Of a stretch of 64,000 nt of DNA, positions 5,459 through 18,629 are shown piece after piece; the first letter of the stretch is position 1; each line of letters starts with the position of its first letter. The notes under the pieces were generated by a model. The model ran no database searches and was not told the origin of the DNA. It saw only the letters and a program-made list of their open reading frames with translations. A program made the position numbers and the translations under genes. Origin of the DNA: Dehalococcoidia bacterium (GTDB lineage Bacteria; Chloroflexota; Dehalococcoidia; Lucifugimonadales; CBDEGW01); contig CBDEGW010000004.1 in the NCBI GenBank assembly GCA_965237935.1, positions 93,340 through 157,339 on the forward strand, read 5' to 3'.

Positions 5459-5797
5459 ATGACGACGATGCACACACCCTGGGGGCCTCCCCAGGACATC
5501 GAGGAGCTGGCCGAGGGCGTCCTGCGGGTGTCCACCGCCAGCCACGGCGGGCTGAAGCTCAGCCGGGAGCGGTGGGCCGAAATCCCCGCCGCCGTCCGGC
5601 GGACCATGTTCACACCGACGTTCGCCGAAGAGGACTGCGAGGAACCCATCGTGAGTACGCTGCTGGGCCTGGGCGACGACCGGGAGAGGGAGATGGCGGT
5701 CAGGGTGGCGGAATACTTCGAGCGGTACGCTCCCGCGCTGCCCTATCTCCAGGGAAAGGGGGTGGGCCATGAGCATGAGCACGACCACGCGGCCTAG
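5459..5797 (+). CDS. Conserved mobile-element hypothetical protein (DUF7007-like)
   Basis: TPWG...STASHGGLKLS motif; strong RBS. Confidence 0.6.
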   Translation: MTTMHTPWGPPQDIEELAEGVLRVSTASHGGLKLSRERWAEIPAAVRRTMFTPTFAEEDCEEPIVSTLLGLGDDREREMAVRVAEYFERYAPALPYLQGKGVGHEHEHDHAA

Positions 5798-6188
5798 ACC
5801 CCGCAGCCTTCCCAGCACCACCACCAAGCTCCAGACGGAGTACGGGAACCTCTACGTCACCGTCTCTACGGACGAGGACGGAGAGCCGTTCGAGGTCTTC
5901 GGCTGGCTGGGCAAGGGCGGCTCATTCCAGCACGGGGTAACCGAGCTGGCTTGCCGCCTCATCTCGCTGCACATGCGGCGGGGTACGCCTCTCGAAGAAG
6001 TGATTGACCAGTGCCAGGGCATCCAGGAGATGCAGCCGTTCTTCAACACCATGCCCGACGGCAGGAGCGTGGCCGTCCTGGGACTCGGCGACGGGATAGC
6101 CCACATCCTCAAGGCCCACGTGAAGGCCGGGGAGGAGAGGGAGGCGGCGGAGACGGCGGAAGCGGTGGAAGCGAAGGCCGCTGCATGA
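5769..6188 (+). CDS. Stand-alone TSCPD-domain protein (class II RNR C-terminal/NrdJb-like)
   Basis: TEYGNLYVTV...PFEVF..GKGG...RLISLHMRRG.PLEEVIDQCQGI matches the NrdJ C-terminal domain pattern. Confidence 0.7.
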   Translation: MSMSTTTRPRPRSLPSTTTKLQTEYGNLYVTVSTDEDGEPFEVFGWLGKGGSFQHGVTELACRLISLHMRRGTPLEEVIDQCQGIQEMQPFFNTMPDGRSVAVLGLGDGIAHILKAHVKAGEEREAAETAEAVEAKAAA

Positions 6189-6281
6189 GCGGTCTGAACA
6201 ATCGAGAGCTTGGAATCCAGGCGGGGCCGTCTCCAACAGGGGCCGCCCCGCTTCCCATTACAGGACAAAGGAGGAATCGAC

Positions 6282-7406
6282 ATGACGACAGACATTGACC
6301 GGGCGGAGGTCTTCTCCCGCCCCGCTGCGCGGTTCGACGAGGACGGGCAGCTTGAGATACGGGCCTCGTCGGCCCTGGGCTGCCGCCGCGCCCTGTGGTA
6401 CGCGGCTACCGGATACGAATCGACGAATCCCCCCAGCGAGGACTCGCTGACGGCGATGGAGGCGGGCAACGCCCTCGAACCCGTCGTCCTGCGGGCGATG
6501 GAGCGGGCGGGCTGGCGGGTCGATCCCGCCGACCCCCGTAACCCCGAATCGGTGTCCATGCGGCTCCGCCCCTCCCTGGTCGTGACGGGACACCCCGACG
6601 CTACCGGGCGGATGCCCCCCGTATCAAGTACGGGGCAGGCTCTGGACGGAGACGAAGCGGTCTCCGAGGTCCAGACGTTCCTGTTCGGGGACGGGCCGCA
6701 GGCTCCCCGCTACGGCGACGAGATGGTCGTCGAGGTCAAGACCAGGGGGCCGGAGGCGTTCAAACGCTGGCGCACCCTAGGAGCGGAGCGCAGCCACCCG
6801 GCGTCGGTTGCCCAAGCCGCCTTCTACACCTATGGGAAGTTCGGAGGATGGCCCCGCGATGCGGTGATTGCCACGATGGACACGGGCGGCAGAACGTGGG
6901 ACTACGAAATCATCCCCGCCGACCGGCTGGAACGGGCCTTGGACGACGCCTGCAAATGGCTGGGCGAGCTTGCCGCCCACCATGTCCAGAACGGGCCTGA
7001 CCCCGACGCGCTGCCCGACCGGGATTTTTCCGCAGGTAGCTGGCAATGCCGGTCCTGCCCCTTCCTGGCGGTCTGCCTGCCGGGTGCGGCGGAAGCGGAC
7101 GACGAGACGGAGATGGAGGGAGAGGAGGTTAGCGACCAGGAGGCGCGGGACGCGGTGGCGGCCTACGCGGAAGCCCAGGAGTCAATCAAGGAGCCTGAAA
7201 AGGTCAAGCGCACTGCGCTGGACACACTCAAGGCGTGGATGCGCCGCCAGGGGGACTCCAAGGCGACCGTGAACGGAAAGACGGTCAGCCTAGTGCAGTC
7301 CACGAGGTACTCGGTCAACTACCGCAAGCTCAACGCCGTCCTCGACCCGGAAGTCCGGGCCGAGATCGTAACGGAGAGCGAGTCGGAGTACGTCCGGGTC
7401 AGCTAG
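6282..7406 (+). CDS. PD-(D/E)XK exonuclease, Cas4/AddB-like with 4-Cys Fe-S motif
   Basis: LGCRRALWY, GHPDA, VVEVKT, QAAFY, CRSCPFLAVC; AAAGGAGG RBS at ATG 6282. Confidence 0.8.
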   Translation: MTTDIDRAEVFSRPAARFDEDGQLEIRASSALGCRRALWYAATGYESTNPPSEDSLTAMEAGNALEPVVLRAMERAGWRVDPADPRNPESVSMRLRPSLVVTGHPDATGRMPPVSSTGQALDGDEAVSEVQTFLFGDGPQAPRYGDEMVVEVKTRGPEAFKRWRTLGAERSHPASVAQAAFYTYGKFGGWPRDAVIATMDTGGRTWDYEIIPADRLERALDDACKWLGELAAHHVQNGPDPDALPDRDFSAGSWQCRSCPFLAVCLPGAAEADDETEMEGEEVSDQEARDAVAAYAEAQESIKEPEKVKRTALDTLKAWMRRQGDSKATVNGKTVSLVQSTRYSVNYRKLNAVLDPEVRAEIVTESESEYVRVS

Positions 7407-7497
7407 ACGCTCCTGGCGGAGCGCACAACGGGGCCTGTTCCTCATCTACCGGTACGGCCCCGCCGAGTCCCATCAACCGAGCATGAAAGGAGACACC

Positions 7498-7869
7498 ATG
7501 CCCAACGCAACAGGGACCACGACGACCTGGCAGGACAACCACAGCGGACTGCGCAGGCACAAGCTCATGACCAAGGAGCTGGGGGACACCATCCCCGCGC
7601 TCGGAGCCAACGAGAACGTCGAGGACTACGACGACGTTCTCGCTCCAGCCAAACTTTTCAGCCCCTACAGCAACTGGACCTGGTACGTCACCGAGTGGGA
7701 CGCCGAGACCGGGGTGTGCTTCGGCCTCGTCGAGGGGTTCGAGACGGAGCTTGGCTACTTCTCCCTCGACGAGCTGGCGGAGGCGACCGTGTTCGGCAGC
7801 GTCCCCGCCGTGGAGCGCGACCTGTACTGGAAGCCGATGACCATCGGCGAGATCAGGAGGGGAGGATAG
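7498..7869 (+). CDS. DUF2958-like protein
   Basis: KLFSPYSNWTWYVTEWD...FGLVEGFETELGYFSLDEL. Confidence 0.75.
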   Translation: MPNATGTTTTWQDNHSGLRRHKLMTKELGDTIPALGANENVEDYDDVLAPAKLFSPYSNWTWYVTEWDAETGVCFGLVEGFETELGYFSLDELAEATVFGSVPAVERDLYWKPMTIGEIRRGG

Positions 7870-7923
7870 CGCCCTGGTACTCGGCGGTCACAAACGCAAT
7901 CAGAGAGGAAAAAAGGAGGACAG

Positions 7924-8283
7924 ATGAGCAGATTCGCGCCGAAGACGCTGCGGAGGATGCCGCCCGCCGCCCGCGAGATCGCGCGGCTGGCCAACGAGCT
8001 GGCCTCAGTGCAGACCCGCCTGGGCAACCGCATCGGGGGGCTGGTAAGCACGGAGATGATGGCGAGGGCGTCGGAGCGGGTGTTCTGTAGCAACGCCGCG
8101 CACGCCGAGGTGGTGGACGCCGCCCTGGGCTACTTCAGGGCGGTGGACAACCCGAAGGCCCACGCGGGCGAAGCCGTGGACGCCCTGGCAAGGCTCAGGC
8201 GCTCGGTCGAAGCCTTCGACCCCGACCGGCTCTTCGACGACGACGAGCCGGGGCCTGAGCCGCAGCACATCGAGTTCAGCTAG
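7924..8283 (+). CDS. Hypothetical protein
   Basis: AAAGGAGG RBS; lies between repeat-flanked genes. Confidence 0.7.
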   Translation: MSRFAPKTLRRMPPAAREIARLANELASVQTRLGNRIGGLVSTEMMARASERVFCSNAAHAEVVDAALGYFRAVDNPKAHAGEAVDALARLRRSVEAFDPDRLFDDDEPGPEPQHIEFS

Positions 8284-8399
8284 ACGCTCCGAAGCGGGAG
8301 CGCCGGACGGGGCCGCTTCCCTCTACAGGGATTCGCGGCCCCGCTCTCATTCAACCGGGCGCGGCAACGTCCGCGCCACACCATTCAGGAGGAATCGAA

Positions 8400-8801
8400 A
8401 TGGCACGCACCATCAACAAGGTAGAGCTCTTGGGACGGGTCGGTACCGAGCCGGAGATGCAGTACACCCCGAACGGCACAGCCGTCACCAAGCTGCGGCT
8501 GGCGACGGACCGCCGCAGCCAGGACGGGGAGGTCGAGGCCGACTGGCACAACGTCGTGATCTGGAGCAAGACCGCCGAAGCCGTCAACGAATACATCGGC
8601 AAGGGCGACCGCATCTACGTCGCCGGACGCCTGGTGAACAACACCTGGGAGGGCGACGACGGGCAGCGGCGCTACCGCACCGAGATTCACGCCTCCGAGG
8701 TCGTCTTCCTCGACTCTCGCAACGGCAACGGGAACGGCGGGCAGGTCAACGACGGCGACGCCTCGGACGTCGAGCAGACGGTCGCCGCTTCTCCCTTCTA
8801 G
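8400..8801 (+). CDS. ssb: Single-stranded DNA-binding protein
   Basis: INKVELLGRVGTEPE, WHNVVIW, IYVAGRL, TEIHA; C-terminal PF. Confidence 0.95.
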   Translation: MARTINKVELLGRVGTEPEMQYTPNGTAVTKLRLATDRRSQDGEVEADWHNVVIWSKTAEAVNEYIGKGDRIYVAGRLVNNTWEGDDGQRRYRTEIHASEVVFLDSRNGNGNGGQVNDGDASDVEQTVAASPF

Positions 8802-8917
8802 CCCGCTCAGTCCACAACCGCATAGCGACGCCTCACTGAAGGCGCACCACGGGGCCGCTCCCAACCTACAGGGGGCGGCCCCGCTCCTGTTTCTAACCGA
8901 AAACGAAGGAGGCCGAC

Positions 8918-9424
8918 ATGACCAGGAAGAAGACCCTCACCAAGGACGCCGCGCTGCTTGAGGCGCTGCGCAGCAACCTGCACCTGCTGGGCGAGATAGC
9001 CATGCGCTACGAGGTCGAGACCCAGCCGAAACGCCCGGAGGATCCGCCCTCCATCAACTGCCCCGACGACGTGTGCAGGCTGCTGGGGCCGGAGATGGCG
9101 CAACTGGCCCAAGAGCAGCTTCGGGTGCTGCTATTGGACACCAAGAACAACGTCGTGGGCCAGAGGGTGGTCTACCAAGGGAACGTATCGTCGGCCATCG
9201 TCAGGCCCGCCGAGGTGCTGCGCCCCGCCGTCATCGAAGCCGTCCCCAGCATCATCATCAGCCACAACCACCCCAGCGGCGACCCGACGCCCAGCCCGGA
9301 GGACGTGGCCATCACGAGGGAGCTGACGCAGGCGGCCAAGCTGCTGGGCATCGAGCTGCTCGATCACGTCGTCATCGGCGGGGAGAAGTTCGTCAGCCTC
9401 AAGGAGCGGGGCCTCATGGCCTGA
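8918..9424 (+). CDS. radC: RadC-like JAB/MPN domain protein
   Basis: EQLRVLLLD, HNHPSGDPTPSPED, LLDHVVI. Confidence 0.9.
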   Translation: MTRKKTLTKDAALLEALRSNLHLLGEIAMRYEVETQPKRPEDPPSINCPDDVCRLLGPEMAQLAQEQLRVLLLDTKNNVVGQRVVYQGNVSSAIVRPAEVLRPAVIEAVPSIIISHNHPSGDPTPSPEDVAITRELTQAAKLLGIELLDHVVIGGEKFVSLKERGLMA

Positions 9425-9522: not shown

Positions 9523-10152
9523 ATGCTCGCAACTCACACCATCGACCCCGAAGACCTCTACACCATCACGTCAGGCGGCTTCAGCGCCACCGCCGACGCC
9601 TTCGCCCGCGACGACAACACCGACGGCCTCTGGTTCGTCTCGATGGTCGGCTCCCAGACGGCGCTCAAGGCGATCTGGGCCTCGCTCCTCAAGCAGCCCC
9701 CCGACACCGCCCACATCATCCGTGGCGCGGACGGCATGGCGCTCTCGGGCGGCTACCAGCGGTGCCAGATTCCCTACGAGACCATCGGGACGTGGACGAC
9801 CAAGATCGCCCGCCTGCCGGTGTCGGGAGGCTGGCACGCCCTCGTGTACACCAAAACCGCCGAGTACGGATTCGAAAAGGGCAGCTTCCTCCTGCTGGCG
9901 CAGGCCGAGGATGAGGCCCCCGCGCTGCACCACCGCTTCCTGGACAAGCGCAGCCCGCTCCCCCTGCACGGCTCCTGGGCGGACTGGCTCTGGCGGCGGG
10001 GCCTGGACAACGGGGAGATAGTCCCCCTCCAGTCCGTCGGCGTCTCCGCCTACAGGTGCTCCCCCAAGGCCGACAAGCTCCGGGAAGACCTCTCCGACGC
10101 CGTGGCGTCGGGCTGGCTCACCCTGCCCACTGAGGAGGTTTCCGATGGATAG
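9523..10152 (+). CDS. Hypothetical protein
   Basis: AAAGGAG RBS; 209-aa globular-looking ORF coupled to the next gene. Confidence 0.75.
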   Translation: MLATHTIDPEDLYTITSGGFSATADAFARDDNTDGLWFVSMVGSQTALKAIWASLLKQPPDTAHIIRGADGMALSGGYQRCQIPYETIGTWTTKIARLPVSGGWHALVYTKTAEYGFEKGSFLLLAQAEDEAPALHHRFLDKRSPLPLHGSWADWLWRRGLDNGEIVPLQSVGVSAYRCSPKADKLREDLSDAVASGWLTLPTEEVSDG

Positions 10153-10552
10153 GACGCTGAAGACGGCCAAGCGCAAGAACAAGCGCAGGCAGAACCGGAA
10201 CGGGAGCGCCTGGCGGCGCTTCTCCCCGGACGGGACGACCTGCCGCTACTGCAAGCACGACCACACCACGCACCTGACAAGCTCAGGCCAACCCCACTTC
10301 TACCGGCCCGCCACGGAAGCGGAGAAGCGCGACCCCTCGGTCATGTTCTACCGCCACACCCTGGCCCAGGGCGGCTCCGTGCTGGTGCGGCGGATGGTCG
10401 TCGCCAACCACGCCGAGCTCGTCACCGCCTTCTGCACCGCCTGCGCGGAGAGCATCGGGACTCACCAAGTCCTCTGCTACCAGCGCAACGTGGGCGTCGG
10501 AGAGGTGGTCGGGGTGCAGACCGGCCACAGGGACATGGCAATCGCCGCCTGA
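10145..10552 (+). CDS. Hypothetical Cys/His-rich protein
   Basis: GAGGAGG RBS; CRYCKH and CTAC motifs. Confidence 0.7.
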   Translation: MDRTLKTAKRKNKRRQNRNGSAWRRFSPDGTTCRYCKHDHTTHLTSSGQPHFYRPATEAEKRDPSVMFYRHTLAQGGSVLVRRMVVANHAELVTAFCTACAESIGTHQVLCYQRNVGVGEVVGVQTGHRDMAIAA

Positions 10553-10585: not shown

Positions 10586-10855
10586 ATGCCAACGGAACAG
10601 ACGCTGTTCTTCACCTGCCCCCACTGCGACGAGCGGTTCGCGCAGGTCGAGGAGCCTGACAGGGACATCCACACCGGGGAGACCTACCACTGCGGCTCGT
10701 GCGGCATCCAGGTGGTCTTCCAGGCGGTGACCGTCGAGGACTACGTGCCGCCCCCCAGGGCGAGAAGGGACTGCCACTTCTGCAACCCCGAACCCTGCCG
10801 GTTCGGGCCGTCAACGGACACAATAGACGACACAGAGAAAGGAGAGACGACATGA
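10586..10855 (+). CDS. Small zinc-ribbon protein
   Basis: CPHC, CGSC, CHFC; strong RBS; ATGA overlap with the methyltransferase. Confidence 0.7.
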   Translation: MPTEQTLFFTCPHCDERFAQVEEPDRDIHTGETYHCGSCGIQVVFQAVTVEDYVPPPRARRDCHFCNPEPCRFGPSTDTIDDTEKGETT

Positions 10856-13800
10856 GACTTGCAGCACAGGCAAAAGGCGGGTTTTACCCCACGCCGGAGC
10901 GGGTCGTCGACCTGCTCGCGGAGCTGATTCACACCCCCACCGGCTACTACCACAGGGACCGGGAGACGCTGCGCATCCTCGACCCCTGCTGCGGGGCTGG
11001 GGAGGCGCTGGCGCAGCTGGCCGAGCGCATGGACGCGCCCAACGCCATCCCCATCGAGACCTACGGCGTCGAGCTGCACCGGGACCGGGCGGAGGAGGCG
11101 GAGAAGCGGCTCGGGCGCGCCCTGGCCTCGGACCTGTTCGCCACGTCCGTAGCGAACGGGGCCTTCGGGCTGCTCCTTTTGAATCCGCCGTATGACCATG
11201 ACTCGGAAGACAAGCGGACGGAGCACGCCTTCCTGACCCAGACCACGCGCTACCTGGCCGAGGGCGGGCTGCTGGTGTTCATCGTCCCCAGACAGCGCCT
11301 CGCGGTCTCGGCCCGCTACCTCTCCACCCACTACGGGCGGATGCGCTGCTGGGCGTGCGCCGCTTAACGCGGTATAGAATCCCCGACTCAATCGGGAGAA
11401 ACTCGGAGTACGTTTCTGGGTCAACCAACCTACCTCAAGGCGAAAGCCAAGGGGGAAAACAGCATGTTGGTAAAGCGGCTACGGTCTGAAAGCGTTGTAA
11501 GACCGGTTCCGCAAGACCCGCGCTATATGGTGAAAGCTACACTGCCTGAACCTCAGTATCCGATCGGAGATTAGCGCCTCCCTCTGGTATAACGCTTGAA
11601 ACCCAGAGCCACTCATTACCTCAAGTTGGGTCCAGCCTTGCTGTAACTCCGATGAGTGGGCGTTGGCCAATGAGGCCAGTTAAGGGTACGAACGAGGCAC
11701 CTAAGTAGCGCTATCACGTTCTATACCGACGGAATGCGGGATTCCCTAATGGGGGCGACCCCTATGGGAACGGAGCCACCGTAGTAGTCCGAGGACGGGA
11801 AAGCCGTCCACATGGCGAAGGGTGGCAGGTGTCAATCGAGACTCAGAAAAGGAGGTGCGCGAGATGCGCAACGCCGAAACCATACTGGGAATCATTCGCA
11901 ACAGAGGTACACGGGGACTGCCCGTGAACGACCTTTACCGCCAACTCTGGAACCCGAACCCGTACCTGATGGCCTACGGGCGCATCGCCAAGAACGACGG
12001 CGCGCTCACCCCAGGCGCAACACCGGAAACCGCAGACGGGACGAAGATGGACGACATCCACGCGATCATCGAGGCCCTCCGCTTCGAGCGCCACCGATGG
12101 ACTCCGGCCCGCCGCGTATACATCCCGAAAGCCAACGGGAAGCGGCGGCCACTCGGACTCCCCGCGTGGTCGGACAAGCTGCTGCAAGAAGTGATGCGTC
12201 TCCTATTGGAGGCGTACTACGAACCGCAGTTCAGCGACCGGTCGCACGGCTTCCGGCCCAACCGTGGATGCCACACGGCCTTCACGGAGATAACCCGCAC
12301 CTGGACGGGCACAACATGGTTCATCGAAGGAGATATCGCCGGTTGCTTCGACAACATCGACCATAAGGTGTTGATGGAAATACTTGGTGAGAACATCCAG
12401 GACAACCGCTTCCTGCGGCTCGTCTCCAATCTCCTCCGGGCTGGCTACCTTGAGGACTGGAAGCTCAACGCCACCTACAGTGGCACCCCGCAGGGGGGTG
12501 TGGTGAGTCCCATACTCGCCAACGTCTACCTAGACCGGTTGGACAGGTTCGTGGAGGGAGTGCTTTTGCCCGATTACAACCGTGGCATGAAGCGGAAGCG
12601 CAACCAAGAGTACCAAAGGTTGGAAAGCAGGGCCAGATACTTTCTGAGTGCTGGACGTGGCAAAGAGGCGGCGGCTCTCCGCCCCCTCATGCGGTCGTTG
12701 CCTGCCAACGACACCCACGACCCTGCCTACCGCCGCCTGCGGTACATACGGTACCCCGACGACTTCCTGCTCGGCTTTGCGGGGCCAAAGGATGAGGCCG
12801 ATGAGATCAAGGCTAGGATAGGTATGTTCCTGCGAGATAATCTCAAGCTGGAGCTATCCGACGCCAAAACCCTGGTCACCCACGGCCGAACCCAAGCAGC
12901 ACGGTTCCTCGGCTATGAGGTCGTCGTTCAAGGGAACGACACCAAGCTCGACGCCAGTGGCCGTCGGTCGGTCAACGGCATCATCGGGCTGCGCGTTCCA
13001 CAAGACGTAGTACGCGCCAAGAGCGCCGCATACATGCGAGACGGCAAACCGCAGCAACGCGGGGAACGGCTTCACGACTCGCCATACAGCATCGTGGAGC
13101 AATACCAGGCGGAGTTCCGGGGCGTCGTCAACTACTACCGGCGTGCAACCAACCTGAGCGCACTGAACCATCTACGCTGGGTCATGGAAATGTCTCTCGC
13201 CAAGACGCTTGCAAGCAAGCTGAAGATCAGCGTCTCGCAGGTGTTCAAGCGGTACAAGACCACGATTCAGACGGACAACGGGCCTCGCAAGGTCTTGATG
13301 GTGAAGGTGGACGAGCCGGGCAAAAAGCCGCTGGTGACGTACTGGGGCGGCGTTTCGCTTGCGCGGGACAACACGGCAACCCTGATCGACAAACACCCCC
13401 CGATACTCAACGGTCGGACGGAACTCGTGCAGCGCCTGCTGGCCGACACCTGCGAGCTTTGCGGCTCAACGGTCAAGGTACAGGTGCACCACATACGAGC
13501 AATGAAAGACCTGCGAAAGAAAGGGCGGGCCGAACGGCCCGCTTGGGTGGAGATGATGGCACAGCGGCGTCGAAAGACGCTCGTGGTCTGTGCGCCATGC
13601 CATGCGGACATCCATGCCGGACGACCGCTGAAGCAGATTGCACAGGCAGCCTAAGTATCCACGTTGCAAAGGTCGGTAGTGTCTCAACAGTGTTACACTA
13701 GGGATGACAGGCAAGACATGCATCGTATAAGCCGGAAACTGGTCAAGATCGGCATCATCCTTGTGGCCATCGGTGTCACAATGGCGCTGCTGTGTGGCCT

Positions 13801-14664
13801 GTCCGGTGGTGTGCTCTGGGCGGTAGGTGGACGTGACCACGTAAGCGACAGCGGTGTCAGATACATGCTGGTGGTCGCCTACATATCGTTTTACGCCTGC
13901 CTTGTTGCCAGTCTTGTCACCCTCGCCGGAGGCGTCGGCGCCGGTGCGCTTGGTTTGACGCTGAAGGGTGTTGTCCTAGGTACGGCATACTTCCATAGGC
14001 CCTAGACACTATCCACCACTTACGACACTAGAGAGCCGGATGCGGTGAAAGCCGCACGTCCGGTTCGGAAGGGGGCCGACGGAAAAGTGCTCCGGTAACA
14101 CGGGGTAACTCGCCGGCGGCCTACCTTACCTTCCCGCACCCGGAGCGCGAGGTCTTCGACCAGGTGGTGTTGATGGGCTACCGGAAGGCCGACCCCGTTC
14201 CCGACGCCCACGGCGAGAGCATGGTGCTGGAGTGGGCGGTGGGTGAGCCGGAGCCGATGCGCCCCGAACAGTACCCGCCGTTCACCCCGAAGACCACGCC
14301 GAGCGGCGACATCCTGTTCACCACCCGCACCGTCGATCCCGTCGCGGCTGCTGCTGAGGCGCGGCGGTCGGGGCTGTGGACGAGCACGGAGATAACCGAC
14401 ACCCTCTGGCCCGCCAGGGACACCCGCACCCGCCCGCTGATGCCCCTGCGAAGGGGACACATGGCGATGCTGGTGGCGGCGGGCTTCCTCGACAACCTCT
14501 GCCTGGAGGCGGAGGGGCGGCGCATCCTGGTCAAGGGCCGCACCAGCAAGGAGATGGTCATGGTGGAGGACAGCCCCGAGAAGGAGGTCCACCGGGAGAA
14601 GCTCAAGACCACGGTGGTCGCCCTGGACCTCAACGGCGGAGAGATCACCGACATCGCAGCATAG
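10852..14664 (+). CDS. SAM-dependent DNA methyltransferase (DUF6094-like), split by a group II intron; exons 10852-11354 and 14130-14664, 345 aa spliced
   Basis: FYPTP, LDPCCGAGE, NPPY motifs; joining the exons (503+535 nt) gives in-frame RCWA-FPHPEREVFDQVVL. Confidence 0.9.
11864..13654 (+). CDS. ltrA: Intron-encoded reverse transcriptase/maturase with C-terminal HNH endonuclease
   Basis: KRRPLG, GTPQGGVVSPILANVYL, YIRYPDD (variant of YADD), CELC..VHH...CAPCHADIH; AGGAGG RBS at 11864. Confidence 0.92.
   Translation: MRNAETILGIIRNRGTRGLPVNDLYRQLWNPNPYLMAYGRIAKNDGALTPGATPETADGTKMDDIHAIIEALRFERHRWTPARRVYIPKANGKRRPLGLPAWSDKLLQEVMRLLLEAYYEPQFSDRSHGFRPNRGCHTAFTEITRTWTGTTWFIEGDIAGCFDNIDHKVLMEILGENIQDNRFLRLVSNLLRAGYLEDWKLNATYSGTPQGGVVSPILANVYLDRLDRFVEGVLLPDYNRGMKRKRNQEYQRLESRARYFLSAGRGKEAAALRPLMRSLPANDTHDPAYRRLRYIRYPDDFLLGFAGPKDEADEIKARIGMFLRDNLKLELSDAKTLVTHGRTQAARFLGYEVVVQGNDTKLDASGRRSVNGIIGLRVPQDVVRAKSAAYMRDGKPQQRGERLHDSPYSIVEQYQAEFRGVVNYYRRATNLSALNHLRWVMEMSLAKTLASKLKISVSQVFKRYKTTIQTDNGPRKVLMVKVDEPGKKPLVTYWGGVSLARDNTATLIDKHPPILNGRTELVQRLLADTCELCGSTVKVQVHHIRAMKDLRKKGRAERPAWVEMMAQRRRKTLVVCAPCHADIHAGRPLKQIAQAA
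13718..14005 (+). CDS. Passenger small membrane protein inside intron domain IV
   Basis: 95-aa ORF with 2-3 hydrophobic helices between the IEP stop and domain V. Confidence 0.55.
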   Translation: MHRISRKLVKIGIILVAIGVTMALLCGLSGGVLWAVGGRDHVSDSGVRYMLVVAYISFYACLVASLVTLAGGVGAGALGLTLKGVVLGTAYFHRP

Positions 14665-14767: not shown

Positions 14768-14968
14768 GTGAAGATGCAGATAACCATGACGCTGGAAGCC
14801 TGCGCCCGGTGCGGGCAGCCCATCGCCCCCGGCGAACCCGCCATGCAGACCGCCTCAGTGGACATCATCGGCGGAAGGGCGGTCTCCTCCCCGGTGAAGT
14901 CCTACCACCTGAAGGGCCGCTGCTACAACGACGTGCACCGGCGGGAGTCCCTTCCGAACGCAGCATAG
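14768..14968 (+). CDS. Small Zn-binding hypothetical protein
   Basis: AAAGGAAGG RBS, GTG start, CARC and YHLKGRC; flanked by repeat units. Confidence 0.6.
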   Translation: MKMQITMTLEACARCGQPIAPGEPAMQTASVDIIGGRAVSSPVKSYHLKGRCYNDVHRRESLPNAA

Positions 14969-15070: not shown

Positions 15071-16441
15071 ATGAACCTCGGACAGTTCATCGACACATTC
15101 AAGGACGCCATCGCCCAGCGGGTGGTGGCGTCCTACCCGCCCCTCTACAGGCCCTCGGAGAACGGCCACAGGCTCCCCCGCCTGCTCCGCAAGCCCCTGG
15201 GGGCGCAGGCCGACGCCATACGGGGCGCGGCCCTCTCCCTCGAAGCCCACCGGGGCACCACCGTCGTCGGCGAGATGGGCACCGGCAAGACCTTCATCGC
15301 CGCCGCCGCCGCACATGGCGGGCTTCAAGCGGGTCCTGGTCCTCTGCCCGCCCCACCTGGTGCCCAAGTGGAAGCGGGAGGTGGAGATGACGGTGCCCGG
15401 CGCCCGCGCCGTCATCGTCAAGTCCATCACCGACCTGGAGCGGCTGCGCATCTCCGCCGGCTCCGGCCCCCTCTTCGCGGTGATGAGCCGTGAGAAGGCC
15501 AAGCTGTCCTACCGCTGGATGCCCGCCGTGATACAGCGGTGGGCTGTGTCCAAGGGCAGTTTGTTGCGGGACGAGGAGACGGGCGAGCCGTTCCGGGTTC
15601 CCTGATGCCCCGACTGCACGGCTCAGATCGTGGACAAGGACGGCGTTCCCCTCACCGACGAGGACCTGAACCGCAGGAAGCACACTTGCGCCAACTGCGG
15701 CTCCCCCCTCTGGCAGGCCGACAAGTCCGGCCCCGCCCGCTACCCTCTGGCCGACTACGTGAAGCACCACATGAAGGGGTTCTTCGACCTGCTGGTCGGG
15801 GACGAGGTGCACGAGTACAAGGGAAGAGGCTCGGCCCAGGGCATCGCCGCCGGAGTCCTAGCCGACGTCTGCGGCAAGTCCCTCAGCCTGAGTGGAACCC
15901 TCATGGGAGGGTATAGCTCGACGCTCTTCCACCTGCTCTACCGGTTCTCGCCTGAGATCAGGACGGAGTTCGGGCGCTCCGACGAGCACCGCTGGATTCA
16001 GCGATACGGCTTCGAGGAGCACACCGTCGGCAAGACGGACGACGAGGCGGTGGAGGACGGGCGCAACAGCAGACGGCGCAAGTACCGCAAGGTGGTCAGG
16101 GAGCGGCCGGGACTGGTGCCCAGCGCCCTCTTCCACATCATCGGCAACACCGTCTTCCTGCGCCTCGCCGACGTGGCCTCGGGCCTGCCCCCCTACGAGG
16201 AGCAGGTGATGCTCTCCTCGATGGACTCGGAGGAGGATGCGACGGGCTACTCCCAGCGCAGCGCCTACAACACCGTGTACGAGGAGCTGCGGCTGAAGCT
16301 GGCTGAGGCTCTCAAGGCTGGCTCGAAGCGGCTGCTGGCGACCTACCTGCAAACCCTGTTGGCCTACCCTGACGGCTGCACCAGGGGGGAGACGGTCTTC
16401 GACCCCAGGAGCGGGGACGTGATCGTGCAGGTGCCGCCCCT
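15071..16441 (+). pseudogene. SF2 (SNF2/DEAD-like) helicase pseudogene
   Basis: GEMGTGKT and DEVHE motifs; 2-bp deletion near 15314, in-frame TGA at 15603-05, 3' end cut by IS3. Confidence 0.85.
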
Positions 16442-16458
16442 TAAGGTGGACCCCATTA

Positions 16459-17394
16459 TTAAGACAGCACGAGGGCTAAATTAAGAGAGTCTCCCACCCC
16501 TGCGCTAGGTTTCACCAAGCCCGATGGCAGCCCTGCTTCTTCAGCTGCTGCTCCCCTTTCTTCCTGGCCATGTTGGTACACCTCTGCTGGGGTCCGGTAG
16601 CCCAAAGCCTGGTGAGGCCTCTGCCGGTTGTAGAACTCCAGGTAGGCATTGATCCCAGTTCGGGCCTCGGCGACGGTCTGGTAAGCTTTCAGATACACCT
16701 CCTCGTACTTGATGCTCCGCCACAGCCGCTCCACGAAGATGTTGTCCAGGTACCTACCCTTACCATCCATGCTGACCTGGACCCTCTGCTCCTGCAACGT
16801 CTGGGTAAAGGCCTCACTGGTGAACTGACTCCCTTGGTCGGTGTTGAATATCTCCGGTCGTCCCTTACCCAGGGCTTCCTCCAACGCCGCCACGCAGAAG
16901 CTGGTGTCCATGGTGTTGGAGAGCTTCCAGGCCAGCACGTGCCGGCTGTGCCAGTCCATGATGGCCACCAGGTACAGGAAGCCCTTCGCCATGGGGATGT
17001 AGGTGATGTCCGCGGCCCAGACCTGGTCGACCCGATTAACCTCCACTCCCTTCAGCAGATAGGGAAAGATCCGGTGTCCCGGCGCTGGTTTGCTGGTGTT
17101 GGGACGCCGGTAGATCGCTTCCAGACCCATCAACCGCATCAGCCTTCGAACCCTTTTTCGGCTCACCAGATAGCCCTGTTGCAGCAGCCAGGCCTTCATC
17201 TTCCTGGAGCCGTAGAAGGGGGTCTTCAAATACTGACGGTCCATCAGGGCCATCAACTCCAGGTCTTCTGCCCTGGTCGGTACCGGCCGGTAGTACACCG
17301 AGGCCCGGCTGACGTCCAGCAGGATACATTGACGCACCAAAGACAGCTGCTGGTGGTCTCGGTCTATCATGGCTCGCCGTATGCTGCGACTCAT
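16459..17394 (-). CDS. IS3 transposase OrfB (DDE integrase core)
   Basis: [32 protein letters not shown]. Confidence 0.95.
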
Positions 17395-17675
17395 AGACCG
17401 GACCTTTCCGACAAAAAATCGCGTTCCACCTTCAGCTGGCCGATGTGCCGGTAGAGGTGGTTAATCTGAGCTTCCTTGGCTTTCTCCTGGGATTTCTGAT
17501 TGGTGGCAAATAGCTCCGGGGCTCCTTCCACCAGGGCCCTTTTCCAGGCGTGAATCTGACTGGGATGGACCTCAAATCGGCTGGCCAGCTGGGCGATGGT
17601 CTCTTCCCCCGCAAGGGCGGCCAGGGCCACCTTGGCCTTGAACGCCGGACTGTGCTTATTCCTCGTCTGCTTCAT
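17391..17675 (-). CDS. IS3 transposase OrfA (HTH)
   Basis: [15 protein letters not shown]...[11 protein letters not shown]. Confidence 0.92.
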
Positions 17676-17711
17676 GTCCTGCTCCTCCACGTCGGTTAGT
17701 TGCCGGTTATT

Positions 17712-18629
17712 TTAGGAGCTGGACTCTCTCTTAGCCAGTTGTCTAGTTTTTGGGTACCACCTCAATGCCTTCTTAAGAAATGTCAGGTCCACCATTTCCT
17801 CAAAGGCTGGCATCCTGAGGCTTCCCGTCCCCGCCCCCAGCACCTCCGCCATGTACCTGGCCCCGGGAGGTTCTATCTCGCAAGTAAGCTGCTCCCTCAT
17901 GGCGTCGTACTCAGACTGGATACCGTCCCTGTCTATGTAGGGTATCCACTTCTGGCCGATGCGGATGGCTGCCTCTCGGTCCGTCTTGACGAACTCCATG
18001 GCCTTCACTATTGCGTTGACCACCCTCTGCGCCACGTCGGGGTTCCTGCCGATGTAGTCGTCGGTAGCGCATATACCGCCACTGTAAAAGGCTATGCCCT
18101 TGGGATAGGGCAACGGCTTGAAGCCTTCCTGCTGTCCCCATGCCATGAACTGGGCCCTGGCGAAGACGGCAGTGATGGATGGGTCCCTGAAAGCTTTGAT
18201 GCGGTCCTCGGCGTCGCCCTGCACCACCTCGACATCCACCCCTGGCTGCCAGCTATTCTGCCGGCAAATGTACATCATCTCATCCTTGGAGCGTCCTCCT
18301 CCCACCATCACCTTCCCACCCTTCAGGTCGGCCACCGACCGAATATGAGGCCGGGCGATACCACCGTGAACTGCCGCAACAGAGCCACATAGGGCCTTGG
18401 CCTTTCCCCAACCTCTTACCGCGGCTTCCACAGCCAGGTAGGCCGCCGTGAAGAAGGTCACATCGCCGTCCTGGGCCAGCCGGAACATCCTCTCCTTGCC
18501 GTCAGTTGCATGAATACAGTGGACTTTGACCCCTTCCTTCTCGAAGAAACCCTCCTCTTCTGCCGCATACAAGGGTAAAAAGGTCATCGTAGGATAAGCC
18601 ACGGTCACAAGCATTTTTCGCTCCTCCAA
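17712..18629 (-). CDS. NMT1/THI5-like ABC substrate-binding-fold protein; last ~14 residues come from the IS3
   Basis: FLPLYAAEEEGFFEKEGV, DLKGGKV; reads into the IS IR at KKAL|RWYPK. Confidence 0.8.
   Translation of the reverse strand: MEERKMLVTVAYPTMTFLPLYAAEEEGFFEKEGVKVHCIHATDGKERMFRLAQDGDVTFFTAAYLAVEAAVRGWGKAKALCGSVAAVHGGIARPHIRSVADLKGGKVMVGGGRSKDEMMYICRQNSWQPGVDVEVVQGDAEDRIKAFRDPSITAVFARAQFMAWGQQEGFKPLPYPKGIAFYSGGICATDDYIGRNPDVAQRVVNAIVKAMEFVKTDREAAIRIGQKWIPYIDRDGIQSEYDAMREQLTCEIEPPGARYMAEVLGAGTGSLRMPAFEEMVDLTFLKKALRWYPKTRQLAKRESSS

What the first reader, a model, noticed from the sequence alone, without database searches (positions are those of the whole stretch)
11355..14129. Intron is base-pair matched to its site, so methyltransferase expression depends on splicing
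Seen: EBS1 GTCCAG (11630-35) pairs with IBS1 CTGGGC (-6..-1). EBS2 TAGCGC (11572-77) pairs with IBS2 GCGCTG (-12..-7). Delta G11629 pairs with exon +1 C14130. Splicing restores a 345-aa ORF. Inference: the intron retrohomes into a conserved mobile-element methyltransferase and gates a probable anti-restriction function. This parallels Ll.LtrB, which sits in a conjugative relaxase gene.
Basis: partly seen in the sequence, partly recalled or inferred. Interest (0 to 1): 0.6.

Follow-up and report, generated by a model that had tools for sequence, protein, structure and literature searches.

The report
Mobile intron splits ICE methyltransferase gene
A complete, Ll.LtrB-like self-splicing mobile intron sits in frame inside a conserved DNA-methyltransferase gene of a conjugative element in a Dehalococcoidia genome, so the full enzyme can be made only from spliced RNA; this is a clean new example of a well-known arrangement, in an element copy that is already decaying.

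Summary
Each is confirmed by covariation across about 19 homing-site classes of the same intron family: EBS1-IBS1 103/114 pairs, EBS2-IBS2 93/114, 0 of 20,000 permutations as good, and delta-delta' paired in 12/12.

Joining 11354 to 14130 gives a 345-aa ORF. In 53 intron-free homologues the two halves are collinear with exactly one codon between them, and 46 read CWAFP. The same intron (98-99.6% identical) sits at the same site in two other Dehalococcoidia species whose exons are only 87-90% identical, so it has moved recently.

The intron protein is closest to LtrA, which places the intron in the mitochondrial-like/IIA class. The host gene is a DUF6094 N6-adenine-type methyltransferase in a conserved RadC-methyltransferase-helicase module of a conjugative element.

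Limits:
- An anti-restriction role is inference only.
- This intron copy reads YPDD where all relatives read YADD.
- The neighbouring helicase is dead and cut by an IS.

Sister introns target the helicase Walker A and DExH codons. The stretch between the intron protein gene and domain V carries swappable passenger genes.

The scan has met related Dehalococcoidia ICE introns, one with an extra lipoprotein gene, on other DNA. Verdict: a new member of a known kind.

The parts
10852..11354 (+). Exon 1 of the DUF6094 methyltransferase gene. It holds the SAM-binding motif (DPCCGAG) and NPPY. Start is ATG 10852.
   Evidence: Pfam PF19587 E 6e-22. Homologues start MRLAAQAKGG.
11343..11348 (+). IBS2, GCGCTG
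   Evidence: Pairs with EBS2. Position -9 varies among alleles.
11349..11354 (+). IBS1, CTGGGC (codons Cys-Trp-Ala)
   Evidence: Exact in about 47 of 53 intron-free alleles.
11355..14129 (+). Group II intron, 2775 nt, IIA / mitochondrial-like class
   Evidence: GTGCG 5' end, Rfam D5/D6 hit, LtrA-like intron protein, covarying domain I.
11566..11581 (+). EBS2 hairpin: stem GGAG/CTCC, loop ATTAGCGC, EBS2 = 11572-11577
   Evidence: Loop covaries with each copy's IBS2, and the stem shows compensatory changes.
11629..11635 (+). Delta (G11629) plus EBS1 (GTCCAG, 11630-35), in the terminal loop of the CCACTCAT/ATGAGTGG stem
   Evidence: EBS1 sits at the same loop offset in all family members. 103/114 pairs; delta paired in 12/12.
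11864..13654 (+). Intron-encoded protein, 596 aa from ATG 11864 with a GGAGG upstream: RT, maturase (X) and AI2M-like HNH domains
   Evidence: Pfam RVT_1, Intron_maturas2, AI2M-like_HNH. LtrA 5g2x E 1e-113.
12752..12763 (+). RT motif reading YPDD (C12755) instead of YADD
   Evidence: The sibling copies in two other genomes and 12 other family proteins read YADD.
13718..14005 (+). Passenger ORF, 95 aa, with 2-3 hydrophobic segments, between the intron protein's stop and domain V
   Evidence: 15 homologues down to 46% identity over the full length. A homologue sits in an 85%-identical intron at another site. No Pfam, PHROG or Atlas assignment.
14033..14066 (+). Domain V
   Evidence: Rfam alignment.
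14069..14129 (+). Domain VI, with unpaired A14123 as the likely branch point, 7 nt before the 3' splice site
   Evidence: Rfam structure line. The branch-point assignment is inferred.
14130..14664 (+). Exon 2 of the methyltransferase. C14130 is delta' and completes the Ala codon. Stop is TAG 14662-64.
15071..16441 (+). Downstream SNF2/DEAD-type helicase gene, here a pseudogene. It has a 1-nt deletion near 15313 and a stop at 15603, and is cut at 16441. The homing site of the sister intron at 15297/15298 is empty.
16442..17764 (.). IS copy that truncates the element. The genome holds 49 full-length copies at 99% identity or more.

Best explanation
Window 11355-14129 is a complete group II intron of the mitochondrial-like (IIA) class, the class of Ll.LtrB. 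It lies in sense orientation inside the coding sequence of a 345-aa DUF6094 methyltransferase. That protein is a gamma-type enzyme with an NPPY motif, most likely an N6-adenine DNA methyltransferase.

The gene belongs to a conserved RadC ... methyltransferase-helicase module of an integrative conjugative element that is common, and multi-copy, in Dehalococcoidia.

The intron recognises its site as IIA introns do. EBS2 and EBS1 pair with the last 12 nt of exon 1, and delta pairs with the first base of exon 2. The target is the codons of the invariant C-W-A-F-P strand, which is why the site is conserved at the DNA level.

Unspliced RNA would give only a 167-aa fragment plus 4 residues. In the model this fragment lacks the last strand of the methyltransferase fold and the whole C-terminal half. 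So the full-length enzyme requires splicing, presumably assisted by the intron's own maturase. This step is inferred from sequence and was not observed.

The lineage is or was recently mobile: near-identical copies occupy the same site in diverged alleles of other species. This copy may have lost reverse-transcriptase activity (YPDD), and its element is degenerate.

That the methyltransferase protects transferred element DNA from restriction is plausible but untested. I put it at about 0.4.
For: Intron anatomy:
-.

Pairings and covariation:
-.

Exact restoration of the frame:
- In 53 of 54 homologous loci exon 1 ends 3 nt before exon 2 starts. 46 of 53 read CWAFP.
- W167, F169 and P170 are invariant in 41 homologues.

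Mobility:
- The copy in OZ244559.1 is 99.64% identical over 2778 nt, at the same site. Its exons are 89.9% identical and its flanks 84-89%.
- The copy in OZ244718.1 is 99.3% identical over positions 1-2302, at the same site. Its exon 1 is 87% identical.

Conjugative element:
- Serine recombinase, Replic_Relax, TrwB/TraG-D coupling protein and TraC/VirB4-like ATPase lie upstream and are collinear in sibling copies.
- Primase, Rad52 and RadC are also present.
- The methyltransferase-helicase pair is syntenic in 53 of 54 loci.
- The pair is also adjacent on Thermoanaerobacterium plasmid pMU3262.

Methyltransferase type:
- DUF6094 and N6_Mtase hits.
- The AlphaFold model is most like M.BseCI, M.TaqI and HsdM.
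- In the model the insertion point lies in strand 161-168, and another strand of the fold (179-186) is encoded by exon 2.
Against: - There is no RNA evidence of splicing.
- The RT motif is YPDD in this copy only. It could be a sequencing error.
- Three other alleles of the methyltransferase in the same genome are empty. Their sites differ from the occupied one only at -9, a mismatch that the occupied OZ244559.1 site also has. This fits a copy that no longer homes, but also fits simply low homing frequency.
- The element copy is decayed, so the methyltransferase may not matter here.
- TIGR04416 scores 258 bits, below its 300-bit cut-off.
- Fold-search E-values (about 1e-8) do not sharply separate DNA methyltransferases from other class I methyltransferases.
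Confidence: 0.82

Rival explanations
1. The locus is a fossil. The element copy is immobilised and decaying, the intron no longer homes because its RT is defective (YPDD), and the split methyltransferase is not expressed or not needed. The perfect pairing is only the footprint of a past retrohoming event.
For: The helicase has a frameshift and a stop and is truncated by an IS. The RT motif reads YPDD against YADD in all relatives. Three permissive sites in the same genome are empty.
Against: Both exons are intact and 98% identical to the intact paralogue. All ribozyme domains are identical to those of the copy in OZ244559.1. The 7 substitutions between the two copies all lie in the intron protein gene. 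The insertion is evolutionarily very recent.
Confidence: 0.35
2. The intron is on its way to being splicing-only (domesticated). The maturase function is kept and reverse transcription is lost, as in organellar introns and O.i.I2.
For: The A-to-P change sits in the YADD loop, while domain X and the HNH domain are intact. The review PMC4424553 notes that degenerate intron proteins are rare in bacteria, with O.i.I2 the only known example.
Against: It is a single substitution in one copy, at 99.6% identity to a YADD copy. There has been no time for selection to act. It may be a sequencing error, and the effect of Pro at this position was not tested.
Confidence: 0.15
3. The methyltransferase is not an anti-restriction device. 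It works with the adjacent helicase as part of a defence or restriction-like system, or in the element's own DNA processing. In that case the intron interrupts a different function.
For: There are weak similarities to MADS Mad2 (PADLOC 4e-13; NCBIfam 8e-5). The helicase C-terminal domain resembles ZorD/DpdE. The methyltransferase and helicase are always adjacent.
Against: The matches cover only the generic methyltransferase core and helicase C domain. No other component of MADS, Zorya or Dpd was found among the neighbours tested. The module sits in conjugative elements and plasmids next to RadC, Rad52 and primase.
Confidence: 0.25

Closest known systems
Ll.LtrB intron with LtrA, in the relaxase gene ltrB of Lactococcus lactis conjugative elements (pRS01, sex factor)
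   Same: - Same protein class: LtrA is the best solved match, over its full length, E 1e-113.
- Same IIA exon recognition by EBS1, EBS2 and delta.
- RT-X-D-HNH protein encoded in domain IV.
- Sense insertion in a conserved gene of a conjugative element, so the host protein needs splicing (PMC7293003 and PMC1874635 abstracts).
   Different: - The host gene is a methyltransferase, not the relaxase.
- The host phylum is Chloroflexota (Dehalococcoidia).
- The intron carries a passenger ORF after the intron protein gene.
- This copy reads YPDD.
- No experimental evidence of splicing or mobility exists.
Sister introns of the same Dehalococcoidia family
   Same: Same ribozyme architecture (70-85% nt identity), with EBS loops at the same positions. 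They sit in the same element, in the neighbouring helicase: at Walker A GKTF|I in about 14 copies, at DEVHE|Y, and at IDTFKD|A.
   Different: Different EBS1, EBS2 and delta sequences, and therefore different homing sites. Different or no passenger ORFs.
Phage P1 DarB, a fused N6-adenine methyltransferase-helicase with anti-restriction activity (recalled from memory, not tested here)
   Same: A methyltransferase plus a DExH/SNF2-type helicase, carried by a mobile element.
   Different: Here they are two separate genes. No sequence link to DarB was shown: the PHROG hits are unnamed or generic. This is a lead only.
Engineered targetrons carrying cargo genes in domain IV (PMC3898094)
   Same: Extra genes placed in domain IV of an Ll.LtrB-type intron.
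   Different: Here the cargo is natural and lies after the intron protein gene. It differs between otherwise 99%-identical introns.

Membership tests
Group II intron, IIA / mitochondrial-like (ML) class | 5' GUGYG and a 3' AY end, with domain V and a domain VI holding a bulged A | tested here: met
   GTGCG at 11355. RF00029 scores 65.7 bits at 14031-14129. A14123 is unpaired, and the 3' end is AC.
Group II intron, IIA / mitochondrial-like (ML) class | EBS1-IBS1 and EBS2-IBS2 pairings with the 5' exon | tested here: met
   6/6 pairs each, including one G-U. Family covariation gives 103/114 and 93/114 pairs, with 0 of 20,000 permutations as good.
Group II intron, IIA / mitochondrial-like (ML) class | 3' exon recognised by delta-delta', with delta next to EBS1 (not the EBS3 of IIB/IIC introns); definition from PMC4424553, | tested here: met
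   G11629 pairs with C14130. The pair is kept in 12 of 12 family combinations as G-C, A-T or T-A. It also switches between two introns that share the same IBS1 (L075 T-A, L078 A-T).
Group II intron, IIA / mitochondrial-like (ML) class | Intron protein with RT, X, D and En (HNH) domains that falls in the ML clade | tested here: met
   Pfam RVT_1, Intron_maturas2 and AI2M-like_HNH. LtrA scores E 1e-113 over 37-597, against about 1e-33 for IIB and IIC proteins. This rests on best hit only; no tree was built. TIGR04416 scores 258 bits, below its 300-bit cut-off.
Group II intron, IIA / mitochondrial-like (ML) class | Canonical RT active site YADD, needed for mobility | tested here: not met
   This copy reads YPDD (12752-63). 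The siblings read YADD. This concerns the activity of this copy, not its family membership.
Group II intron, IIA / mitochondrial-like (ML) class | Splicing and retrohoming activity | not testable with these tools
   The only evidence is indirect: near-identical copies at the same site in diverged alleles.
DUF6094 / gamma-type N6-adenine DNA methyltransferase | Match to the family profile that spans the insertion site | tested here: met
   Exon 1 scores E 6e-22 (profile 128-271). The intact paralogue scores E 2e-28 (profile 128-313), so the match runs across the joint. The Atlas's nearest clusters are DUF6094.
DUF6094 / gamma-type N6-adenine DNA methyltransferase | SAM-binding motif I and catalytic NPPY | tested here: met
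   DPCCGAG and NPPY are both in exon 1 and invariant in 41 homologues.
DUF6094 / gamma-type N6-adenine DNA methyltransferase | The substrate is DNA, with a defined target sequence | not testable with these tools
   The fold is nearest to M.BseCI, M.TaqI and HsdM, but at E about 1e-8, close to other class I methyltransferases. The C-terminal half is poorly modelled (pLDDT below 50 at 230-300).
Anti-restriction (orphan) methyltransferase of a conjugative element | Carried by a conjugative element | tested here: met
   T4CP, VirB4/TraC-like ATPase, Replic_Relax and serine recombinase are present in the same element and collinear in sibling copies. Homologues occur on 328 plasmids, 117 of them typed conjugative.
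Anti-restriction (orphan) methyltransferase of a conjugative element | No cognate restriction nuclease | tested here: inconclusive
   Neighbours 9523-10552 and the small ORF at 14771-14965 have no family hits. The helicase has only ResIII and Helicase_C matches.
Anti-restriction (orphan) methyltransferase of a conjugative element | Protects incoming DNA from restriction | not testable with these tools
   No data.

The most novel reading that the evidence does not exclude
The intron family acts as a natural carrier of exchangeable passenger genes. At one and the same methyltransferase homing site, introns that are 99% identical in ribozyme and intron protein gene carry different genes between the protein's stop codon and domain V. 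One carries a 95-aa membrane protein (this window and OZ244559.1). Another carries a complete DUF3224 protein with a strong ribosome-binding site (OZ244718.1). Sister introns carry lipoprotein-like or membrane-anchored ORFs. If these passengers are expressed and retromobilised with the intron, these are natural 'cargo targetrons'. They would spread small genes into conserved ICE genes, with expression of the ICE's methyltransferase-helicase module tied to splicing.
Probability: 0.4. Interest if true: 0.65.

Novelty: new member of a known kind. Interest (0 to 1): 0.38.

Why it matters
The finding itself is a textbook arrangement: a group II intron in a conserved gene of a conjugative element, as Ll.LtrB sits in ltrB. 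It adds a new host gene, a new host lineage and a well-resolved family. I found no paper in the held library on group II introns in Dehalococcoidia or Chloroflexi.

The family view is more useful than the single case. A set of closely related IIA introns has re-targeted itself to several invariant motifs of one ICE module: CWAFP in the methyltransferase, and Walker A, DExH and the N-terminus in the helicase. This gives a natural table of EBS/IBS/delta re-targeting.

The same introns show natural cargo exchange in domain IV. That bears on targetron engineering and on how retroelements pick up genes.

Tried and rejected
- **Single-sequence fold.** An MFE fold of 11545-11665 did not give the EBS2 hairpin and had z = -1.0. 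I rejected it as a test and replaced it with the family alignment and covariation.
- **Selection on passenger ORFs.** dN/dS is near neutral. L099 against L100 gives omega 0.89, with the intron protein at 0.21. The window against L110 gives 0.72, with the intron protein at 0.27. Selection therefore gives no proof of coding. Support comes instead from full-length homologues at 46% identity and from a full DUF3224 match in the swapped cassette.
- **Defence-system reading.** PADLOC gives only generic methyltransferase-core and helicase-C matches, so I did not adopt it.
- **DarB-like link.** PHROGs gives unnamed or generic hits only, so no link was shown.
- **Passenger ORF function.** Pfam, NCBIfam, PADLOC, PHROGs and the Atlas give nothing for the 95-aa ORF.
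- **Position -9 as a homing barrier.** I considered the IBS2 -9 mismatch as the reason the three paralogous sites are empty. I rejected this because the occupied site in OZ244559.1 has the same mismatch.
- The contexts of the more distant passenger-ORF homologues (P0015-P0018) could not be checked. Only L110 was checked.
- **Literature.** Searches for Dehalococcoidia or Chloroflexi group II introns, for DUF6094, and for natural cargo in bacterial group II introns found nothing relevant.
Full report
**1. What is in the sequence**

The intron runs from GTGCG at 11355 to ...CCTACCTTAC at 14129. Rfam's group II model matches domains V and VI at 14031-14129 with 65.7 bits against a gathering score of 40. 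Its structure line leaves A14123 unpaired in domain VI, 7 nt before the 3' end.

A 596-aa ORF runs from ATG 11864, preceded by GGAGG, to 13654. It has RT, maturase and AI2M-type HNH domains.

The flanks are two halves of one gene. Exon 1 (10852-11354) matches DUF6094 and N-6 DNA methylase profiles and holds DPCCGAG and NPPY. Exon 2 (14130-14664) has no family hit on its own. Joining them gives 345 codons that read ...R-C-W-A|F-P..., with the Ala codon split GC|C. In the unspliced frame a TAA follows 4 codons into the intron (11365-67).

**2. Are the named pairings real?**

Taken alone, a 6-mer that can pair with a given 6-mer (G-U allowed) is not rare. Even so, in the 506-nt domain I only one 6-mer can pair fully with IBS1, and it is the named EBS1. 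Two can pair with IBS2.

The strong test is covariation.
- The window's own genome holds related introns. Their EBS loops differ and match their own flanks.
- A scan of one genome per species with the conserved 5' end found 34 more loci, all in Dehalococcoidia or Chloroflexota.
- Over 33 copies (24 distinct combinations, 19 target classes), the loop positions homologous to 11630-35 and 11572-77 pair with the copy's own -6..-1 and -12..-7. The counts are 103/114 and 93/114 cells, against permuted means of 55 and 53. None of 20,000 permutations reaches either value.
- The base 5' of EBS1 pairs with exon +1 in all 12 combinations where the 3' exon could be read. It uses G-C, A-T and T-A, and it switches between two introns with the same IBS1.
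- An RNAalifold consensus of 22 domain I sequences has 108 pairs, 43 with compensatory changes. It puts EBS2 in a terminal loop whose 4-bp stem itself covaries.

According to the review PMC4424553, recognition of the 3' exon by delta-delta' is the mark of IIA introns. The intron protein agrees: LtrA of Ll.LtrB is the best solved match over its whole length (E 1e-113), while IIB and IIC proteins score near 1e-33.

**3. Does splicing restore a real gene?**

Yes.
- A scan with exon 2 returned 51 loci in other Dehalococcoidia genomes, and the own genome holds three paralogues.
- In 53 of these 54 loci, exon-1 and exon-2 homology are collinear with exactly one codon between them. 46 read CWAFP.
- W167, F169 and P170 are invariant in a 41-sequence alignment.
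- IBS1, CTGGGC, is exact in about 47 of 53 empty sites. In IBS2 only position -9 varies much: C in 21 sites and G in 28.
- An AlphaFold model of the 98%-identical intact paralogue has pLDDT 80-95 over most of residues 11-225. It puts the insertion point in strand 161-168 of the Rossmann-like fold and places a further strand (179-186) in exon 2. Its nearest solved folds are M.BseCI, M.TaqI and type I HsdM.

The exon-1 fragment alone therefore lacks part of the catalytic fold and the whole C-terminal half. This is an inference from a model.

**4. Mobility**

- One locus, L025 (OZ244559.1), has the same intron at the same site. It is 2778 nt long and 99.64% identical, while its exons are 89.9% identical and its flanks 84-89%.
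- A third genome (OZ244718.1) has it too: 99.3% identical over intron positions 1-2302, with exon 1 at 87%.

The intron is thus far younger than the alleles it sits in. It has spread by homing or transfer between elements.

The site in OZ244559.1 has G at -9, so that mismatch is tolerated. This removes -9 as the reason why the three paralogous sites in this genome are empty.

The window copy differs from the OZ244559.1 copy by 7 substitutions. All 7 lie in the intron protein gene, and 4 change the protein. One turns YADD into YPDD (C12755). All 13 other family proteins examined read YADD.

The ribozyme domains of the two copies are identical. Whether YPDD abolishes reverse transcription was not tested, and it could be a read error.

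**5. Context**

The window's left 16.4 kb and about 18 kb upstream of it form one element. The upstream part encodes:
- a large serine recombinase;
- a Replic_Relax protein;
- a TrwB/TraG-D-type coupling protein;
- a TraC/VirB4-like ATPase.

The window part encodes primase, Rad52, RadC, the methyltransferase and an SNF2/DEAD-type helicase. Sibling copies in the genome are collinear with it at 80-93% identity.

The RadC ... methyltransferase-helicase order holds in 53 of 54 loci. A DUF6094-helicase pair with Rad52 nearby also occurs on Thermoanaerobacterium plasmid pMU3262. 'Conserved mobile-element methyltransferase' is therefore supported.

This element copy is decayed, however. Its helicase has a 1-nt deletion near 15313 and a stop at 15603. 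It is also cut at 16441 by an IS that has 49 near-identical copies in the genome.

Nothing tested here speaks to anti-restriction. PADLOC and PHROG matches are generic, and the neighbours have no nuclease hits. I keep anti-restriction as the most likely role for an orphan-looking methyltransferase on a conjugative element, at about 0.4.

**6. The family picture**

Sister introns (about 70% identical in nucleotides) occupy other invariant codons of the same module:
- the helicase Walker A (GKTF|I, about 14 copies);
- DEVHE|Y;
- IDTFKD|A near the helicase start;
- an IYQGNV site in an unidentified gene.

In the sibling element at C5:427.5-445 kb, the methyltransferase site is empty and the helicase site is occupied. 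In the window it is the reverse. In OZ244718.1 both genes are interrupted.

**7. Passenger genes (inside the finding's coordinates)**

Between the intron protein's stop (13654) and domain V (14033) lies a 95-aa hydrophobic ORF, 13718-14005.
- It has 15 database homologues down to 46% identity over the full length, with conserved ends and in-frame indels.
- One homologue, in L110, sits just before domain V of an 85%-identical intron at a different site.
- dN/dS is not clearly below 1: 0.72, against 0.27 for the intron protein.

In OZ244718.1 the otherwise 99%-identical intron has a different 494-nt insert here. It encodes a complete DUF3224 protein (E 7e-41, full profile) behind an AGGAG.

Other family members carry lipobox or membrane-anchor ORFs of 113-165 aa, or none at all. 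Compact members end the intron protein gene about 10 nt before domain V.

Engineered targetrons tolerate cargo in domain IV (PMC3898094). I found no paper on natural cargo in bacterial introns, which does not show that none exists.

**8. Comparison and verdict**

The locus works like Ll.LtrB in ltrB, where splicing is required for the host protein (PMC7293003 and PMC1874635). It meets every sequence-level criterion of the IIA/ML class except the YADD motif in this one copy.

It is a new member of a known kind. Notes from this scan on other genomes describe related cases: a Dehalococcoidia ICE primase split by such an intron that carries a lipoprotein gene, and an intron in helicase Walker A codons. 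The arrangement is therefore recurrent in this lineage.

Interest is moderate to low for the finding as stated. It is higher for the cargo-exchange reading, which remains to be tested.

Noticed in passing
window 13718-14005; L113:1050-1436 (-); L110:4001-4282: Passenger genes lie between the intron protein's stop and domain V. Here it is a 95-aa membrane-like ORF with full-length homologues down to 46% identity. The 99%-identical intron at the same site in OZ244718.1 carries a complete DUF3224 gene instead. Sister introns carry lipoprotein-like ORFs.
   Followed up: partly
window 12752-12763: The RT motif reads YPDD (C12755). The two sibling copies and 12 other family proteins read YADD. All 7 substitutions against the OZ244559.1 copy fall in the intron protein gene, and none in the ribozyme.
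   Followed up: partly
window 15071-17764: The helicase downstream of the methyltransferase is a pseudogene, with a 1-nt deletion near 15313 and a stop at 15603. It is truncated at 16441 by a 1.3-kb IS present in 49 near-identical copies. Homology to sibling elements ends at the IS.
   Followed up: partly
window 15297/15298; G000 C5:428709-431977 and C1:649104-652372: A sister intron (3269 nt, identical in two diverged elements) splits the helicase Walker A codons (GKTF|I). The same site in the window is intact but empty, so sibling elements show reciprocal occupancy.
   Followed up: yes
G000 C5:978576-979241 (-): A 666-nt ORF-less member of the same intron family. Its EBS1, EBS2 and delta match its own flanks (GGACCA ATGACT|A).
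   Followed up: partly
L094:95 (CBDFJV010000007.1): An intron begins immediately after the 3' end of another intron (...CCTATCCTAC|GTGCG). The two are tandem copies at the helicase site.
   Followed up: no
L074:3433-7576: A 4144-nt family member whose intron protein ORF is split by an insertion of about 1.3 kb, probably an IS inside the intron.
   Followed up: no
L108 (G000 C4:530000-541000) 5589-9357: In the intact sibling element, the helicase is followed by a Prok_Ub (prokaryotic ubiquitin) gene and a ThiF/E1-like gene. This is a ubiquitin-like conjugation cluster on the ICE.
   Followed up: no
window 14771-14965: A small CxxC-containing ORF (about 64 aa) lies between the methyltransferase stop and the helicase start. 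It was not examined.
   Followed up: no
L110:5028-7936: A second, different family intron lies about 600 bp downstream of the first in OZ252106.1. That genome gave 16 matches to the window intron.
   Followed up: no
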